In this document: positions 48,468 to 58,573 of the stretch, in pieces
Layout of the letters: every line of letters begins with the position of its first letter
Position numbering within the stretch: the first letter of the stretch is position 1
Assembly (NCBI GenBank): GCA_021613535.1
Contig: CP075495.1
Span: 11,966,001-12,030,000, forward strand
Reading direction: 5' to 3'
Source: Adineta vaga
Taxonomy: Eukaryota; Animalia; Rotifera
Length of the DNA stretch: 64,000 nt
Position numbers and translations under genes: made by a program
Notes under the pieces: generated by a model
Database searches by the model: none
What the model was told of the DNA's origin: nothing
What the model saw: the letters and a program-made list of their open reading frames with translations, nothing else

Positions 48468-50932
48468 TCAAATTAGCACACATAGAGATGATCGAGGCAC
48501 GTTTGTATCAGTTTTTTCAATTGAAATAGGTACAAAAGCTTTTATATCTTCTAAAAATTGTAAATATTCAGCAATAGCCAGCACTTGTTTTTTCTCTTTC
48601 ATGGTCGATATGACTAATTCATTATTGAGCGATTGAAACATTATCGGTGAGTTTGCTAAACACATTTTATACATCGCAAGAAGGCGAGTTCCAGTCATTT
48701 GTGCACATATAGGTAGAAAATTTTCCAGATTCTTTTTTATGAAAAATTGTTGTACATCATCCATTGACCATTGCTCAATGTTCGAAGGTAAACAATGATC
48801 ACTAAAATTTCAAAACATCATTCGATACTTTATTCATCTATATCATCTTACTCTTTTGCTTGATAAGTCTTTTTGACAACTTCTTTAATTTGTACATTAT
48901 CATTCGATGGTGTTTCATGATGCACAGGTTTTGGATATGATTTCGTTTCTGCTTTTCTTTCTTTACGTGTTCGTTCAATTTCAATTAATAATTTTTTATA
49001 AGCATCTTCAAAACCATACTTAGGAAAATCGACACGCATTCTTCCTGTTACAACAATGCCAAGCCATCCATCAGGTCGATATTGTGCTTTCATTACCAAT
49101 GGAATAATTGAACATTGTCGTTCTAATGCATAATAGGCTTCCATTTTACAATAACCACTTTGTTTATATCCATCAGACATACAAACAAAAACAAATTCAG
49201 CTTTTTCAATAGCATTTGACATTGCTTCAAGTGGTGTACCATGCATTTGATCACGATCTAACCAAACACGAAAGTTATCTCTTTGTAAACGATCATAGAG
49301 TTGAAAACATAAGTCTTTATCTTTATGACAATAACTTATCATTATATCATAAGATAAGTCTGATGATTGATTTGTCGATGTTGATTCTGATGTATCATCT
49401 TTTGTTAAAATCCAAAGTAAACTTTCAGCTGCGTGTTGTAAATCAGCATCTGCAGAATTTTCCGATAGCAATTTGATATGTTCAAGAAAGTCCGTATTTT
49501 GCTTTAATTCATTACGAACATTTGTATTAAATGACATAATAATAAGATTTTCCAATGCACGTTGTCGAATGAGTGTATCATTTTCTGTATTAGTTACACA
49601 ATAGATAAAAAGTGGTAGACCAGATTGTTTATATATTTCATCACGAATTTGGTCATGTTGTAATAAAACTAAATGAAAAAGAAAACCATTCAAATGAAAT
49701 TTTAATTCTTAAACATGCGAATTACTTTTTAAACTTGCCAGTAGATTTTTAAGTCGTACAATCCATGTTGAATCAGATATAACCGATTGTAAATTTTCAA
49801 GAAAAACTTTTGCTATCGCTCCAGAATCATCAAGTCGTTTTATATCATCTTCTGTCATAATGGCCGCTAAAATTCGATAGATATTAAACTGAATTTCTGA
49901 TTCCTCTTTATATATTGTCGTTAACTTTAACATTGTTGGTGTTAATTGTTTATTTTTTAAATGATCTAATACTTTATCACTTTGTGTACTTATATAAACA
50001 TATTGAATAAGATTTCGATGAAGTTCAATCGATCGACAGTTTCCTAAAAGAATTTGAATAGCAAGATCATTTAAAGGTATTTGCACATTAAGATCTTGAT
50101 CATTTGGTACAGTCATTTGTACATAATAAAGAAATATTGCTGTCGTTTTATTTAAAATTGAAATCGCCGAATTAGCCCAATTTTCCCAGGATACAACATA
50201 TGCTTTTATTAACTCGTATATTGATGGAAGTAAATGTTTACGTAAAGTAAGTGCTTGTTCAAAAAGTCGTTCTCTATTCACTATTGAAAGAAAATCTAAT
50301 AAACAATCGAATACGAATATTTCAGCTGGAGTACGTTCTTCAGAATTTGCAGATGTTTTCAATTGACTTACAACGTCGGATGTATACGATGCATAAACAC
50401 ATTTGAATATCGCATCTTCAAATGGTGAATCATTGATGATACAGTATTTATTGCTACTTTGAATACTAATATAATTAATGAGAAGACGATTAATAACTGT
50501 CATATTCGAATTAATAAACATTGATTTTCCAATACGAGCAATAGCATATAAACATTGATTAAATTCTTCAATTAAAGATGCATTATCTAAATAATTACAA
50601 TAATATGAATTTGTAAGGATAATTGATATATTATCAAATGTTTTTGAATCATTCGAATTCTTGAAATCTTTTTTTTCACGCCATTGTTTTAATAATTGTA
50701 CAAAATAATCAGTAAGAAATGTTAAAATTACTTCATTTAGATACATGATATTAATAGACAATAAAGTCGTTACTTTATTTATATCTTGTTGAAAACTTTG
50801 ATCATCTGACGATTGAAGACGTTTCAATTCCTCACAAATTTCATTCAAAATATCATCATTTTGTTGATAAACTTCACCATTTTGATGCCATTCTTCTAAT
50901 TTACTGTAATGCTGCGCAATTAACGTACTCAT
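48468..50932 (-). CDS. Helical/ARM-like repeats + TIR (TIR_2 type) + SAM-like domain + C-terminal CaaX; introns 49725-49669 and 48851-48802
   Basis: TIR YDIMISYCHKD...VWLDRDQMHG...MSNAIEKAEFVFVCMS..YKQSGYCKMEAYYA..IIPL..GWLG; ARM-like segments before it; SAM-like IEQWSMDDVQQFF..MTGTRLL; ends CVLI*. Confidence 0.85.
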
Positions 50933-51652: not shown

Positions 51653-52717
51653 ATAACTACGAATTTTCTGCAGTCTTAATACGTTTCCGTTTCAATTCAT
51701 GTTAACTATATGTATCACTATGAGTAAAATGAGATGACAGCTTGTGAAATTTCGATGAACTGAGCATCGATGAGGGACGAACTCATGTACTTCATAAGAA
51801 TTTTTAACAATTTTCGAACATCTTCATTCTACCTCAGGATCTCGTCGGTTGATTGTAAAATTAACATTTTTTGTTTTAACTTATATCCAATCTGTTGTAG
51901 GAGTACTTATATCTCTGTAGACATCTTTGTAGATACAGTCCTTAGTTCACATTTCACAGTAATATCAGATATTCTCGTGAAAAAAAACACTTATTTTCTT
52001 GCACATTGTTTCATTCGATTTAATAATTTATTAAGAAGTTATTCAAACCTTTCACAATCTATAGTACATGAAAATCATCAGCTATTTCTGCAAGCTATTT
52101 AAATAGAACTTTTATTGATAATTACTACATAATAACATATACTACAGATATATTGTTCACAACAAACATGGATGAAAATATGACTAAATGATAGAAATAA
52201 CCGGTTAAATAGATGGATAGATTCTTTGCTCATATAAATAGGAAATAGGATAACATCAATAGATTTCTTTTGAAGTTACGAGATCTGAGATGTACATATA
52301 TGCAATCATGATAATTCTTAAATGGCATGAAAGACTGCATATATGATATTCAAAACAAATAAGAAGAAGATAAAAATTAAGCCGAGATTTTGTAGAAAAT
52401 CACTTTTACGTTGTTTGTAAGTATCCTGATCATTGATTGTTATCATATACATAAGATAAAAGCCTAGAAGAAGAGTAAAACGTTTTTTTTTTGTTTTATA
52501 TTTTTCCTAAACATATATGAAGACAGAGGAGAAATTATACGTTCGTTTTTGCACGCAACCGAAAAGAAGAAGTAGAGAACATTCTAAAATTCTACATAGA
52601 AGACTGTTCACGAATACAGATAAAATTTTCTTGACAAAAAAATGAACGCCAAAGAGAGAGAGAGTGAGTGTGTGTATGTTTGTGTTAGAAAGAAAAGAAT
52701 AGGAAAAAATGGTGAAT

Positions 52718-55700
52718 TTAACTGCACGCGGCAATAAAAATGTTAAAGATGGCAAGAATAAATAGAAGACAAATGACACAATTGTCTATATAATCGAGTT
52801 TATGTTGTTTGTACTGATCGTTCAAGTCGATTCGCATCACATACATGAGAATAACACCTAGAATATAAGGAAAAACAAATCAATCAGAACTCGAAGAGAC
52901 ATGATTTAGTAGAAAAAAACAACAACACTATTTCTATTAGAACCATTTACATATTAGTACGAAAGAAAAAGAGATCTTATCAATTCAATTAAAGTTTAAA
53001 CATTAAAATTAGAAAAATAATATCAACTACAAATAAAATTGCAACTAATGCAGTTGGAAGTAGAAGAAGAATTTGTTCATAACGTGTCAAATTTTCTAAT
53101 AATGACGCCGTTGGTAATCGATCAAGCCGTGTAAACAGAAACAAGTATAATTGAACAAAGCCTAGAATCCGGGAAGGCAAGATAGTAACGTCGACTACAT
53201 TTACAATAAACAGAAGGGAAAGCGAAAGATATGTACAAGATTAAATAGACGAATGATTACAGTTATCGAAAAGATGAAAGAAGAAAATAGACGAGAGAAA
53301 ATAGATACAAACGAATACTCAGAAGTTCTTCTAGTTTTCTATTCTTGTTTTTCTTTTTGAGGAAACTTACCGATACTAGCACACATAAGAATTGAAACAA
53401 TGCCAAGTGTAACTTGAGTACCATAGAATGAATTCGAGGTATTTCTTGAAAGTACATGTTTTAGTTGTACACTGTTGCTCATAACAATAATCTATGAAAC
53501 AGAAAATATGTATACCTAGACACGATGATTTTACAGTCGATAGCACAAAATTCTTTTACAAAAATTTCATGATATTTTAAATGATATCATTAATATATTA
53601 CTGCGATTGTATCTTAATGTATTTTTATAGAAAAATTGCATGAAATAATAAGATCTATCGAAAATATATTCTAGTTTTGCACAATTATTCTCAAGTACTT
53701 AATGTTTAAAGTTAGCAAAAATCAGTTAGATACGATGATTGTATTCATATAGTACATTAACTATCATTGCGGTTACAATTAATTGATATTCAATGAACGT
53801 TATATAAATGAGCTGAATAGTTACTAATATGAAAATCGTGACAAACATAAAATATAGATCTATTTGTTCGGACAAATATTATCATTAATCTATGAAATAC
53901 TTTTTGTACATAAAATAATTTGTTATCTTTTATCCTAGAAATAGTGAATGTTGTTTCATTTTTGTCGTTTTACTTACCAACAGACACATGATCGTCATAG
54001 ATGTTTTTTTCAATGAATAAAATCGAGGATCTAATAGAGCATTAGGTGGTTGCTAAAGAATAAACATTAATATTAATAATTCGAAAAAAATAATAACTAA
54101 AAATTATGCTCACTGTTTTATCTTGAGCACGTAATGCCGTTGGTACATAACGTTTCATATCGAATCGACGTTTGTCACTTTCGGATTCAACACGTTCTCG
54201 ATCGATCATCGGTGCCTATGGTAAAAGAATAAAAATATTTACTTGGATAAAATATACATAGAATTCTTTGACTTGAAAAGAGCAAAAACAAGATGAGAAC
54301 GCCTTACCTGTGCTAATTCAACAGCATGTTGATCTTCTATCGACATTTTTCTTCTCGTTTACTTTTGTTCTATAGTTGAGATGTATCAAAGAGGAAAATC
54401 GTCTTAAGAATTTTTATCTATAGATTCAATCAATTTCAGAAATTAACATCAATCTCTATCAAAAGTCGACAACTACTTTTATTCTCGATCTATGTAAATA
54501 AATCAGATCAATAATGATAATAAAAAACAAAAACTCCCATAAACAATAAATTGCATCGTTCTCTTATTATCTATTTTAGTAAAAGTCATCGATAACTTTC
54601 TCTTTCTTCTAACTAGCTCGATTATTCTTTATCATCGATCACCAAATATCTATATCGACATGATACTAACAACGGAATCGTACTAGTCTGATAAAAAAAA
54701 TAATACGAAAGAAGAGAAGAGAGGAAAAAATAAGTGTAAATGTGTGCACCATTTGCAAAGGACAATCGACAGGATAAAAAAGAAGAAAGAAAAATACATG
54801 TCGGATATTGAGGATGCTGTTTTGTATTTTCTTTGTCTATACATTGGAATCGAAGAACTCAAACTTCTCGAAAGTATACAAGTACTAACCATACAAATAA
54901 ATTGTTGTATGTCGTGACAATACCTTTTTCGAAAACTATCTACCTCATTGATATTCTTTCTTTCTCTTTCTCTGTCTATTTTTTATTATTGCTTTTCTTT
55001 CGTCTCTCATATACTAAAATCATCTGATGAAAAAAATCATTCATAGAAACAAGAGGAGAGAAAAAAAAGAATACAAACGCATAGCTACAGAATCTATCAG
55101 TAGTGCTGCTACTCATGATGGCTATTTTTATGTCTATGTTATCCTTTCTCAATTTTCTCTACCGCTACTGTAAATATTTTTTGTGTTACTTTGATAAAAT
55201 GGTCAAAAATAAAAGCAATAGAATAAATGTACTGAATTAGTTAGATATAAATACTTGAAAGCTTTTGAGCAGTTAAGCATTCGAAAAGAGAAGGGAAAAA
55301 TGAAGAAAAAAAACAGACGAAAAGTGTATCTTTGTATTTAGCATTTTCTTACGATAATAAACAAGAACAAAATGTAAATTTATGATAAGATTCCTACAGT
55401 GGAGAGAAGAAAAAACGATTGAATACTTTAGATAATGCATTTTTTTGTTTTTCAACCGCAGCTGGCATAGATTTTCTATGTTCTTATGAAAGCATACCGA
55501 CATGTTTAGGTTGAAGTATTCATCACTTTATTATAGGCAAATTACAGTCGAAAACCAAAGATTTTCGTTTGCTTCTGATCATATACAAGATAGAATTCGT
55601 AATAAAACGAGTGTGATTGAGGCAATAAAATCAAATGAAGAGAAAAAGAATAAGAACTACTTACAATATATTTGCCTTGTCGATCAATAATTTCGACATC

Positions 55701-55790
55701 AGCTGTTGATTGTTTTGGTATCGTTGACATACTTGGTGGGGAATTAGTAAGATCTGTTGCTGTAGCTGGATATTGATTATTGAGATCCAT
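52718..55790 (-). CDS. Ninjurin family protein with alternative first exons (55790-55665; 54346-54308) and alternative last exons (53161-52989; 52857-52718)
   Basis: Spliced product ...FYSLKKTSMTIMCLLIIVMSNSVQLKHVL....FYGTQVTLGIVSILMCASIGVILMYVMRIDLND....KLDYIDNCVICLLFILAIFNIFIAACS* follows the ninjurin pattern (YA.KK..A..M....LLMANASQLK.V...DLN....LD.LNN...NIFI.AF). Confidence 0.82.
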
Positions 55791-58573
55791 AGGTAATGAA
55801 GTTTTCTCCTTGGAAGTAGTTGTTGTTGTATCGCCTCGATCTGTAAAGAATGAATAATTATCAGGATATAATGTATCAGGATAGTATATTTTTGTTAAAA
55901 GTTGAGAATGAACAGGACGTTGATTGGCATTGACTATTGATTTGATCACTCATCGTATGAAATGAAATTTTTGCACGTGATGATATTTTATAAAGAAAGA
56001 CGAAGAAAAAAACAAAATACTTGGCATATGTGCGGGTAACTGCTGACGAATGATTTTGTTGCAAACAATCAAAGACAAAATACGTAGAAAAAAAGTGATG
56101 GCTTTGTCGGTTTTTTCTTTGTTCCGTATTTCGCTAACTCAGGCGGTAAAGACAAGAACAAAAAATGCAGCTATGTAATATAGATATCAATTGATCACGA
56201 TGATCGATAGGGTTTCCTCGATATTATTTATCTACGTTTGTGCTTGGTACAATTGTTACTTCATATCAAGGATACAGTGATCTTTTCTAGCATATATCCA
56301 ATAGCAAAAAAGATATGTGATCAAGAAGATTAAAGATTAAATATAAATATATATAACTATGATGAGTATATACATGTCTACCTTAATATCGAACTCACTT
56401 TTATCCAATGTTTGAAATTTGACAATGCTTACAAAATTCTTGTTGAAAGATTTAGCCATTCAAGAAAAAGAAACAAAAGATGTTGCTCTCTGATGATCTA
56501 TAGTCGATGACGATCTGATCATGAAGTATAGCGCGCATTTTTCTTTCGTTAAAAGGTATATACATAATTAAATACGATGATAAAAGAATTTGTAAAGTCA
56601 TCACATCTTCGTATGTGTATTTATATATATACAGGTATTTATATGCGTGTGTCCTTTGAAAATTATCAATGTCAATCTTGACATTTGATGTATCAGATAT
56701 TTTTGTCTATTTAAAAAAGAGAAGGAGGAGATTTGAATATATCTATTATGTATTACATTGAATTATCGTAATAGAGAAGCTTACCGTGATATTTAAAATG
56801 TAATTTGTCTCGAATCGATTGATGAATATTGTTTGGATAGGTGACCTTAAACTAGATAAAGAGAGAAAGATAATCTTAATGATAGTTGATAAATATAGAT
56901 TAATAAATCGATAGATCTCCAGAAACAAAAATACACAAAAGACTGGATGACTACTATTCTAATACTATATTAGTGAGTACAATAACGATAGGCATTATTT
57001 ATTATTTTTTCTTGTTGACATCATGTTATGGACAATAATATGTCACAAGAATAAATGGAAGAGAAAATCTCCTATGTGATTATCAATTCAAAGTAAAGGA
57101 GACAAACAACATAAGCAAGCATTCGTATTCTCTAATCGACTAGTATTAATATCAATATAACAGTATGTGAGATATTCTTTAATGCGCAACTTGATTGACG
57201 CCTATCATCAATCAATGCACCTGCTGATCTATTCGACAAATGAATGATCCAGAATAATAGATTTCTCTAAGACAATATCTGTAGTAAACAATTTCATACA
57301 AGATATACATGATAATGTCAATATTGAGGAATAAAAAAAACATGTGTTGATACTATATTGATTGTTTTTGAAATCTAGAATTGAGTGCAATAGGAAACAA
57401 AACTTACCTTCATGAAATGTAAATAACATGATTGACAATAAATGAAGCAGGAGAGAAAGAATAAAGTGTTTAATGTGTGAATTTGAGAGTGTATAATGTC
57501 TTGATCTACTGAATAAAAATAAGATGTATACTTGAATTTTGTTGTAAATTGAGAAAGAAAAGGATTAGGATATGTATGTAATACGTTCAAACTTCTTTTT
57601 TTCTTTCTCTTAACATTTCGTACAAAAGAGAAAAAAAAGATAAACGATAGGCTGATGAAGAACATGAGAGTATGAGGATTGATCAATCTATTGTGTGAAT
57701 AATTAGGCCTTTATTTACAATTATTTATTCAATAAGAATTGTGTATTCAAGATGAAAGAATTCATACTCATTGATATTATAAAATACAGAACAAATATAA
57801 TATTATCGTTCGCATTAAATTTAATTGAACATGAGAATTACAGAAGATATCTATCAGTGAAGAAGATATAAACCTTATCATTGTTCGATAAATTTTACTT
57901 CTCTCAAATATATTCTTTCAATTTCAGGAGTAGTTTATGCGACTTCATGAATGATAACAGCTGTTACAACTTCAAAACTTGACGTATAGTATTTATTATT
58001 CTTATTCTTCTTTAAATCATAAAAAAATTAATTCAATCTTAATAAATCTGTTGCTTGCAATGGACACTTTTCAGCAAAGAAACGATTTGAGACCTACATA
58101 TAAATACGTTATCAATACGATTGATAGAGCAATGTCTATCTCAATGATGCCAACAAAATCCGTATCAGATTTGATTACATGATATCAGTAACGACCATAT
58201 AAACAATCGTTCACCATATTAATAATTTGTCTCAAGATTTCCTACTTCTATGATGTTCGAGTTTTAATTTTCTTTATTATCTAAACTCTAAAGATTACTA
58301 TTTTCAGATGAAAAGATACATATCAGCTTGTTCGTGGTTTTGACTTTTCTCTGCATTTTTGTTAGCTGATGAGCTTGTATTTATAATATCTTCTCATGCC
58401 ATTTTTCTGTAATGAGAAAAAATGCTTCCTTTCCGCTCATGACTCCTCTTTCTCACCTTCCATGAGATTGATGCATGAATTTGTCTTTAGTCAAGATCAC
58501 ATATCTTGGAATTATCTGTATGAGCTAGGATTCAAGTATCATCACCTGAAATCTGTGAATTTATACAGAAAAT

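What the first reader, a model, noticed from the sequence alone, without database searches (positions are those of the whole stretch)
52718..53492. Ninjurin with two mutually exclusive last exons that swap the second membrane helix
The exon ending ...LMCASI(G)|gtaagt (phase 1) can splice to 52857 (GVILMYVMRIDLND..KLDYIDN..FNIFIAACS*, canonical ninjurin alpha3-alpha4). It can also splice to 53161 (GFVQLYLFLFTRLDRLP..LLLPTALVAILFVVDIIFLILMFKL*, a divergent but equally shaped hairpin). Known: NINJ1 ruptures plasma membranes while NINJ2 does not, and the helical hairpin shapes the filament. Inference: one gene may switch between lytic and non-lytic or inhibitory isoforms by alternative 3' exon choice.
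Basis: partly seen in the sequence, partly recalled or inferred. Interest (0 to 1): 0.72.

Follow-up and report, generated by a model that had tools for sequence, protein, structure and literature searches.

The report
Rotifer ninjurin with three swappable tails
A bdelloid rotifer gene related to the cell-bursting protein NINJ1 has three alternative last coding exons, two seen spliced in public transcript assemblies and the third conserved and likely spliced, that swap the protein's last membrane helix and would likely tune how it pairs up in the membrane; whether any form bursts cells is untested and doubtful.

Summary
Real, and larger than reported. This bdelloid (Adineta vaga-type) ninjurin gene has one donor (53371) and three phase-1 acceptors: A 53161, B 52857 and a missed C 52463. 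Donor-B joints occur in 6 of 7 RNA-type runs and donor-C in 5 of 7; no donor-A joint was seen. A still looks coding: it follows the shared exon in 19 of 19 informative loci, keeps its frame, and has dN/dS 0.47. B and C are ninjurin-type tails; A scores no better than shuffles. The forms likely share one 3' end, so this is likely acceptor competition. The lytic/non-lytic switch is untested and weakened: the shared part lacks D53 and Q91, which NINJ1 needs for lysis and 105 and 106 of 113 other ninjurins keep. C carries Q119, a substitution listed among NINJ1's dimer-destabilising mutants; A likely loses that pocket. An earlier scan note reports three swappable tails in arthropod ninjurins. New variant of a known kind.

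The parts
55665..55953 (-). Alternative long first coding exon (about 96 codons); in the window the ATG at 55953 is one base out of frame with the conserved part
   Evidence: Matches P0001 and long-N relatives such as P0004 and P0030; frame seen; an X11 contig lacks one base at 55941. No laid RNA-type contig covered it.
54308..54346 (-). Short first coding exon (13 codons)
   Evidence: Joint to the next exon in X2 and X4
54114..54215 (-). Constitutive exon 2
   Evidence: Joint 54052/54114 in X1-X6
53978..54052 (-). Constitutive exon 3: alpha1 with Y41, K44, K45 equivalents; Leu at the D53 position
   Evidence: Joints; NINJ1 mapping
53371..53491 (-). Shared exon S: alpha2 and most of alpha3, ending in the first base of the G95 codon; single donor for A, B and C
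   Evidence: Pfam Ninjurin 23 bits; joints; omega 0.12
53162..53194 (-). Conserved GC-richer stretch before acceptor A (branch-point-like TACTAY, CCGG, and an in-frame AG 33 nt upstream in 9 of 13 loci)
   Evidence: Mean pairwise identity 0.68 over -30..-4 versus 0.55-0.58 for the S, B and C acceptors; AG count read from the listing
52989..53161 (-). Alternative last coding exon A (57 aa, tail with no detectable ninjurin homology, invariant Pro; predicted 169-aa isoform)
   Evidence: Present in 19 of 19 informative loci; omega 0.47, LRT 19 against omega=1; one X1 contig covers 52976-53153 without a joint
52718..52857 (-). Alternative last coding exon B (46 aa, canonical ninjurin tail; 158-aa isoform)
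   Evidence: Joint in 6 of 7 RNA-type runs; Pfam Ninjurin 26.3 bits; omega 0.11
52318..52463 (-).
   Evidence: Joint in 5 of 7 RNA-type runs; Pfam Ninjurin 19 bits; omega 0.11
52111..52116 (-). First AATAAA downstream of all three stops; likely shared poly(A) signal
   Evidence: No AATAAA or ATTAAA between the A stop and the C stop; an X1 contig reaches 52085 (contigs cannot show RNA ends)

Best explanation
One bdelloid ninjurin gene splices a single donor to competing acceptors B and C, and likely also to A, giving three proteins that share the N-terminal helices but differ from G95 onward, which likely tunes how this probably non-lytic ninjurin dimerises and assembles in the membrane. Shown: the B and C joints, and conservation of all three exons. 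Inferred: all forms end at one poly(A) site beyond C, so a proximal choice leaves the distal exons in the 3' UTR with no downstream junction. Inferred from NINJ1 mutants: B is the ancestral default, with pocket D116/D119/N120. [quoted passage not shown] A replaces the tail with a longer-looped, proline-containing helix lacking N119/N120; it would still pair through the shared TM1 but would be unable to extend a normal filament, so it likely acts as a minor brake or re-targeting form. A's conserved, GC-richer acceptor region is likely where the choice is regulated.
For: Donor-B joints in X1-X6 and donor-C joints in X1-X5, all GT-AG; DNA-like run X11 is unspliced here. A lies between S and B in 19 of 19 loci long enough, of 20 fetched on S-exon patterns. 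Its length varies 135-180 nt only in steps of 3 in 13 of 13 dereplicated loci. Second codon positions change least (0.28/0.17/0.30), and omega is 0.47, LRT about 19. A occurs in both gene clades, with and without C (99% branch). B-joined contigs run 190-280 nt past the B stop, in X1 and X5 29 nt into exon C. No AATAAA/ATTAAA between the A stop and acceptor B in 12 of 12 loci. The swapped part holds D116/N119/N120 (PMC11711097 section 9) and F100/F117 (bioRxiv 2023.05.31.543175 passages). C has Q119 in 6 of 6 loci, and N119Q is among the four mutants used as dimer-destabilising in mouse NINJ1. A predicted B+A dimer of A. ricciae gene models scored 0.65, best control 0.01, contacts agreeing 87% or more, partner pLDDT 71 or more. 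That mark was reached by 51 of 78 solved and 2 of 108 mismatched microbial pairs, and by 39 of 65 and 2 of 126 eukaryotic pairs. A like complex (9BIA) is solved, so the pass may come from memory.
Against: The donor-A step rests on conservation and on database gene models, not on a junction. A's omega (0.47) is four times that of S, B and C (0.11-0.12). Every functional label is carried over from single mutants of mammalian NINJ1, at about 37% identity. A's register against alpha4 rests on a 4.8%-probability profile alignment. T123L reduced lysis alone but added lysis in mixed filaments, so C's net effect is ambiguous. The predicted dimer interface is mostly the shared TM1. Two of six B-C spacers hold an ATTAAA, and the overlap with exon C (29 nt) is just under the tool's 31-nt bridging bar.
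Confidence: 0.55

Rival explanations
1. One reading: the gene is a true lytic switch, with B or C rupturing the plasma membrane and A acting as a dominant-negative inhibitor.
For: B keeps G95, L98, D116, N120, F127, N133, I134 and A138, with aromatics at 100 and 117 like NINJ1. C has Q119. Non-lytic NINJ1 mutants can be dominant negative. Drosophila NijA overexpression kills cells (PMC3460944 passages).
Against: The shared part has Leu at D53, Cys at Q91 and Thr at E49. D53 is kept by 105 of 113 and Q91 by 106 of 113 other ninjurins, and D53A and Q91A reduced or abolished lysis. Seison and Brachionus orthologues lack both residues too.
Confidence: 0.2
2. Exon A is a relic or a splicing decoy kept for RNA-level reasons and yields little or no protein; only B and C are real isoforms.
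For: A has higher omega (0.47) and 62% mean identity versus 93% for B. It is shortened in one lineage (L003-L006). The acceptor region is conserved at the nucleotide level.
Against: Frame-keeping indels only, and a stop at the homologous place, in 13 of 13 loci; omega significantly below 1; retained in both gene clades; 11 invariant residues in 12 aligned A exons.
Confidence: 0.12
3. A, B and C are classical alternative terminal exons, each with its own poly(A) site, so the choice is set by 3'-end formation rather than acceptor competition.
For: The single X1 contig over A stops 13 nt after the A stop. ATTAAA occurs in 2 of 6 B-C spacers. Such coupling is discussed for Drosophila PGRP-LC (PMC6191721 passages).
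Against: No canonical signal after the A stop in 12 of 12 loci, with as little as 36 nt before acceptor B. B-joined contigs run on toward and into C.
Confidence: 0.13

Closest known systems
NINJ1 and NINJ2 (Pfam PF04923; PDB 8CQR, 8SZA, 8UIP, 9BIA, 8SZB)
   Same: B isoform aligns without gaps over NINJ1 39-138, E about 1e-17; Y41, K44, K45, N60, Q63, G95, N133 and A138 kept.
   Different: Lacks D53, E49 and Q91 in all isoforms; tail diversity comes from splicing within one gene rather than from two genes; tail A has no detectable ninjurin homology.
Arthropod ninjurin genes with three alternative last exons (earlier scan note e1-7708967; not a paper)
   Same: One shared part followed by three swappable membrane tails, as that note reports.
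   Different: Arthropod-like protein pairs in my search diverge right after Q91 (unnamed, possibly from different species), whereas the rotifer junction is inside G95, so the origins are likely independent. The divergent tails in those pairs still align as ninjurin tails, unlike A.
3' variable regions of Drosophila PGRP-LC, CG42235 and Pip (Pan et al. 2018, PMC6191721; passages seen)
   Same: A common 5' part is spliced to one of several tandem 3' cassettes, giving functionally different C-termini.
   Different: Those are steered by competing RNA pairings; no conserved pairing was found here. Here one cassette is not a recognisable duplicate, and the 3' end is likely shared.

Membership tests
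Ninjurin family (PF04923) | Sequence match to the Ninjurin domain and to solved NINJ1/NINJ2 | tested here: met
   Pfam hits on S, B and C; a B-type relative matches NINJ1 at E 1.6e-17
Ninjurin family (PF04923) | Ninjurin-type alpha4 tail in isoform A | tested here: not met
   13 A tails score -6.0 to 1.3 bits against a tail profile built from the non-rotifer ninjurin rows; shuffles mean -1.6, 95th percentile 1.5; B 52-61, C 25-31; hhalign probability 4.8%
Ninjurin family (PF04923) | Three-helix membrane fold in isoform A | tested here: inconclusive
   Models give three long helices (mean pLDDT 62 and 49). Foldseek best hits are NINJ1 at E 1.4 and VIA Z is 6-7, not above unrelated helical bundles
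Lytic ninjurins (NINJ1-like) | Polar residues needed for filament and lysis (K45, D53, Q91, G95, T123, I134, A138) | tested here: not met
   D53 is Leu and Q91 is Cys in the shared part; position 123 is Ile/Val in B and Leu in C
Lytic ninjurins (NINJ1-like) | Plasma membrane rupture on activation | not testable with these tools
   Needs LDH or liposome assays
Alternative last exons from one donor | One donor joined to more than one downstream acceptor in transcripts | tested here: met
   Donor-B in 6 of 7 and donor-C in 5 of 7 RNA-type runs
Alternative last exons from one donor | Donor joined to acceptor A | tested here: inconclusive
   No joint in the contigs laid; conservation argues for use
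Alternative last exons from one donor | A separate poly(A) site for each exon | tested here: inconclusive
   No canonical signal after A (12 of 12 loci) or after B in the window; contigs cannot show RNA ends
RNA-pairing-controlled 3' cassettes (PGRP-LC type) | Conserved competing intron-acceptor pairings | tested here: not met
   Mean duplex z -0.04 (A), -0.17 (B); for C only the window is strong (z -5.6, 1 of 6). Only the first intron against acceptor windows was tested

The most novel reading that the evidence does not exclude
Bdelloid rotifers, which survive drying and the membrane damage it brings, run a three-position splice dial on a ninjurin: a default form (B), a hair-trigger form (C) carrying the natural equivalent of NINJ1's dimer-breaking N119Q, and a decoy (A) whose unrelated tail lets it pair through TM1 and cap assembly. 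It would be a one-gene, splicing-encoded on/off control of a membrane-rupture protein, and a natural template for NINJ1 inhibition.
Probability: 0.15. Interest if true: 0.85.

Novelty: new variant of a known kind. Interest (0 to 1): 0.58.

Why it matters
How NINJ1 is held inactive, and why NINJ2 does not lyse, both map largely to the segment this gene swaps. Three naturally selected tails on one N-terminus form a ready-made chimera series for testing what alpha4 and the D116/N119/N120 pocket do. The rotifer-lineage loss of D53 and Q91 also makes this a candidate non-lytic ninjurin for studying the family's other roles. If arthropods evolved a similar swap at a different junction, tail switching would be a recurring way to regulate ninjurins. 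No paper in the library held both 'ninjurin' and 'rotifer' or 'ninjurin' and 'bdelloid'; the single isoforms exist only as unnamed database gene models.

Tried and rejected
No whole genome is held, and no run is on record as RNA; kinds are guesses, but spliced GT-AG joints mark six runs as transcript-derived. I laid 7 of the 13 RNA-guess runs plus DNA-like X11. No donor-A joint appeared in them; X10 showed no joints at all. Contigs drop rare forms, so this is not evidence of absence. The X1 contig over A has 3 substitutions and a 1-base gap at depth 3.5, possibly errors; X11 shows no such gap. An X10 record joins part of A to non-shared sequence and was set aside as a likely chimera. Three protein searches and cluster look-ups found S-A joined forms only in genome annotations, not in transcript-only sources. 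Intron read-through as the route to A was rejected: stops in 13 of 13 loci; the read-through ORFs were selected by that search's length filter. Conserved RNA pairing was not found. Fold searches were inconclusive. The tail tree put B, C, Seison P0087 and P0181 together only weakly (80/53, 44 columns, 52 rows, a subset of the tails), so C's origin from B is inferred from 36-43% identity and position. The E2 query was in the wrong frame and was not used. Contig depths were not used to rank isoforms. No supplementary files were read; published lists of 3' tandem exons may include insect ninjurins.

Full report
Setting. The window is 29.7% GC with short introns. The shared exon's translation is 100% identical to Adineta vaga hypothetical protein I4U23_009508, and the other 16 hits are bdelloid annotations or unnamed. 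Pfam Ninjurin hits the shared exon and the exons at 52857 and 52463, but not the one at 53161.

Observation. The donor after 53371 is phase 1. A scan of phase-1 acceptors downstream gave three with strongly hydrophobic frames (19-residue hydropathy maxima 2.75-2.94): A 53161 (57 aa), B 52857 (46 aa) and C 52463 (48 aa). With the short first exon the isoforms would be 169, 158 and 160 aa. Against NINJ1 the junction lies in G95, so the swap covers the end of alpha3, the loop and alpha4.

Splicing evidence. I laid 7 of 13 RNA-guess runs and one DNA-like run, all as contigs. Donor-B joints are in X1-X6 (6 of 7, 3 studies) and donor-C joints in X1-X5 (5 of 7, 2 studies); the upstream introns are confirmed too; X11 is unspliced. 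No donor-A joint was seen. One X1 contig covers 52976-53153, almost exactly exon A, without reaching the shared exon. B-joined contigs run unspliced 190-280 nt beyond the B stop, in X1 and X5 29 nt into C. There is no AATAAA or ATTAAA between the A and C stops in the window, and the first lies at 52116. None lies between the A stop and acceptor B in 12 of 12 loci, while 2 of 6 B-C spacers have ATTAAA. I infer one shared 3' end and competition among acceptors.

Conservation. Twenty metagenome loci were fetched on shared-exon patterns. In 19 of 19 that extend beyond the donor an A-type exon follows the shared exon, and the order is always S-A-B(-C) where B is reached. After dropping near-identical or cut loci (L004-L006, L010, L012, L014, L015, L019), 13 remained including the window. 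A's length varies 135-180 nt, always in steps of 3, and ends at the homologous stop. For L003-L006 I reset the acceptor by hand to the nearer AG. Codon-model omega is 0.47 for A (LRT about 19 against 1), 0.12 for S, 0.11 for B and 0.11 for C (12 loci, 6 for C). The loci split into a clade with C and one without (99% branch; C absent over 2.9 kb or more in L003-L007), and both carry A and B. Named gene models of A. ricciae, A. steineri and several Rotaria species end in A, B or C; these are predictions, not junction evidence. The 27 nt before acceptor A are more conserved (0.68) and the region is GC-richer than for the other acceptors (0.55-0.58).

What the tails are. Against a profile of non-rotifer ninjurin tails, B scores 52-61 bits, C 25-31, and A -6.0 to 1.3, within its shuffles; hhalign of A against B/C gives 4.8%. 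So B is canonical, C a divergent copy, and A unrelated or diverged beyond recognition. Models of A isoforms have three long helices at modest confidence, and fold searches were inconclusive. B has D116, D119, N120, I123 and A138; C has D116, Q119, N120, L123 and I/V138; A, anchored on its invariant proline, has hydrophobic residues at 119 and 120 (register uncertain).

Mechanism and its limits. In mouse NINJ1, D116, N119 and N120 form the pocket of the autoinhibited dimer, and N119Q is one of four mutants used as dimer-destabilising (PMC11711097; section 9 and passages). F117/F100 versus Q103/V86 are proposed to set NINJ1/NINJ2 curvature (bioRxiv 2023.05.31.543175; passages). All of these lie in the swapped part. 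A B+A dimer model passed (0.65 versus 0.01 best control; 87% or more contact agreement; partner pLDDT 71 or more; mark reached by 51 of 78 solved and 2 of 108 mismatched microbial pairs). Its interface is mostly the shared TM1 and a like dimer is solved, so this shows likeness only. Against lysis: the shared part has Leu at D53 and Cys at Q91, kept by 105 and 106 of 113 other ninjurins (113 of 143 aligned rows kept by coverage and identity). D53A, Q91A, T123L and A138L reduced or abolished lysis (PMC10307626; passages). Brachionus and Seison orthologues lack both residues too, and a partial Didymodactylos one lacks D53, so the loss is old. Non-lytic roles are known for ninjurins: homophilic adhesion (PMC11664169; passages) and WNT-linked signalling (PMC13503662; search listing only). 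I therefore favour tails that tune dimer and oligomer state of a probably non-lytic protein (0.55) over a lytic switch (0.2).

Novelty. Searches for ninjurin with rotifer and with bdelloid gave 0 papers. Ninjurin with alternative splicing gave 48, of which 25 were listed and none addresses this by title or abstract start. A butterfly study notes differential isoform use of ninjurin-A without describing tails in the passages seen (PMC12518556). An earlier scan note reports three alternative last exons in arthropod ninjurins. In my search, unnamed pairs such as P0157/P0206 share 93% before and 30% after the G95 cut, diverging after Q91, which fits that note and suggests a different junction. The design is thus a new variant of a known kind. 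Its distinctive features are a tail with no detectable ninjurin homology kept in both gene clades, a likely shared 3' end, and a natural Q119 tail.

Noticed in passing
window 55665-55953 (-): Alternative long first exon, so up to six isoforms. The window's ATG is one base out of frame with the conserved part; an X11 contig lacks a base at 55941 (allele or assembly indel).
   Followed up: partly
P0085, P0086, P0087 (Didymodactylos, Brachionus, Seison): The rotifer-lineage ninjurin orthogroup lacks D53, and where aligned Q91, which nearly all other ninjurins keep.
   Followed up: partly
window 52464-52717 (-); L008, L009, L016, L017: The B-C spacer holds short conserved non-coding blocks, either 3' UTR elements of the B form or splicing regulators for C.
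   Followed up: no
window 53162-53196 (-): An in-frame AG 33 nt upstream of acceptor A in 9 of 13 loci; gene model P0003 uses it, adding 11 residues.
   Followed up: partly
X10 record on window 53070-53149: A single 151-nt record joins part of exon A to sequence that reads like the downstream gene near 50245; probably a library chimera.
   Followed up: partly
X11, X3, X4 contigs; P0012: A second, diverged copy of the gene in the same organism is spliced to a B-type exon; an X11 contig also has a short A-like stretch.
   Followed up: partly
window about 48800-50930 and about 46500 (-): Downstream neighbours look like an armadillo/TIR-type protein and an AAA ATPase (labels recalled from motifs, not searched).
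   Followed up: no
L003-L006; P0037, P0046, P0089: Exon A is shortened to 46 aa in one lineage, and in three unnamed ORFs its stop is replaced by a tryptophan codon.
   Followed up: no
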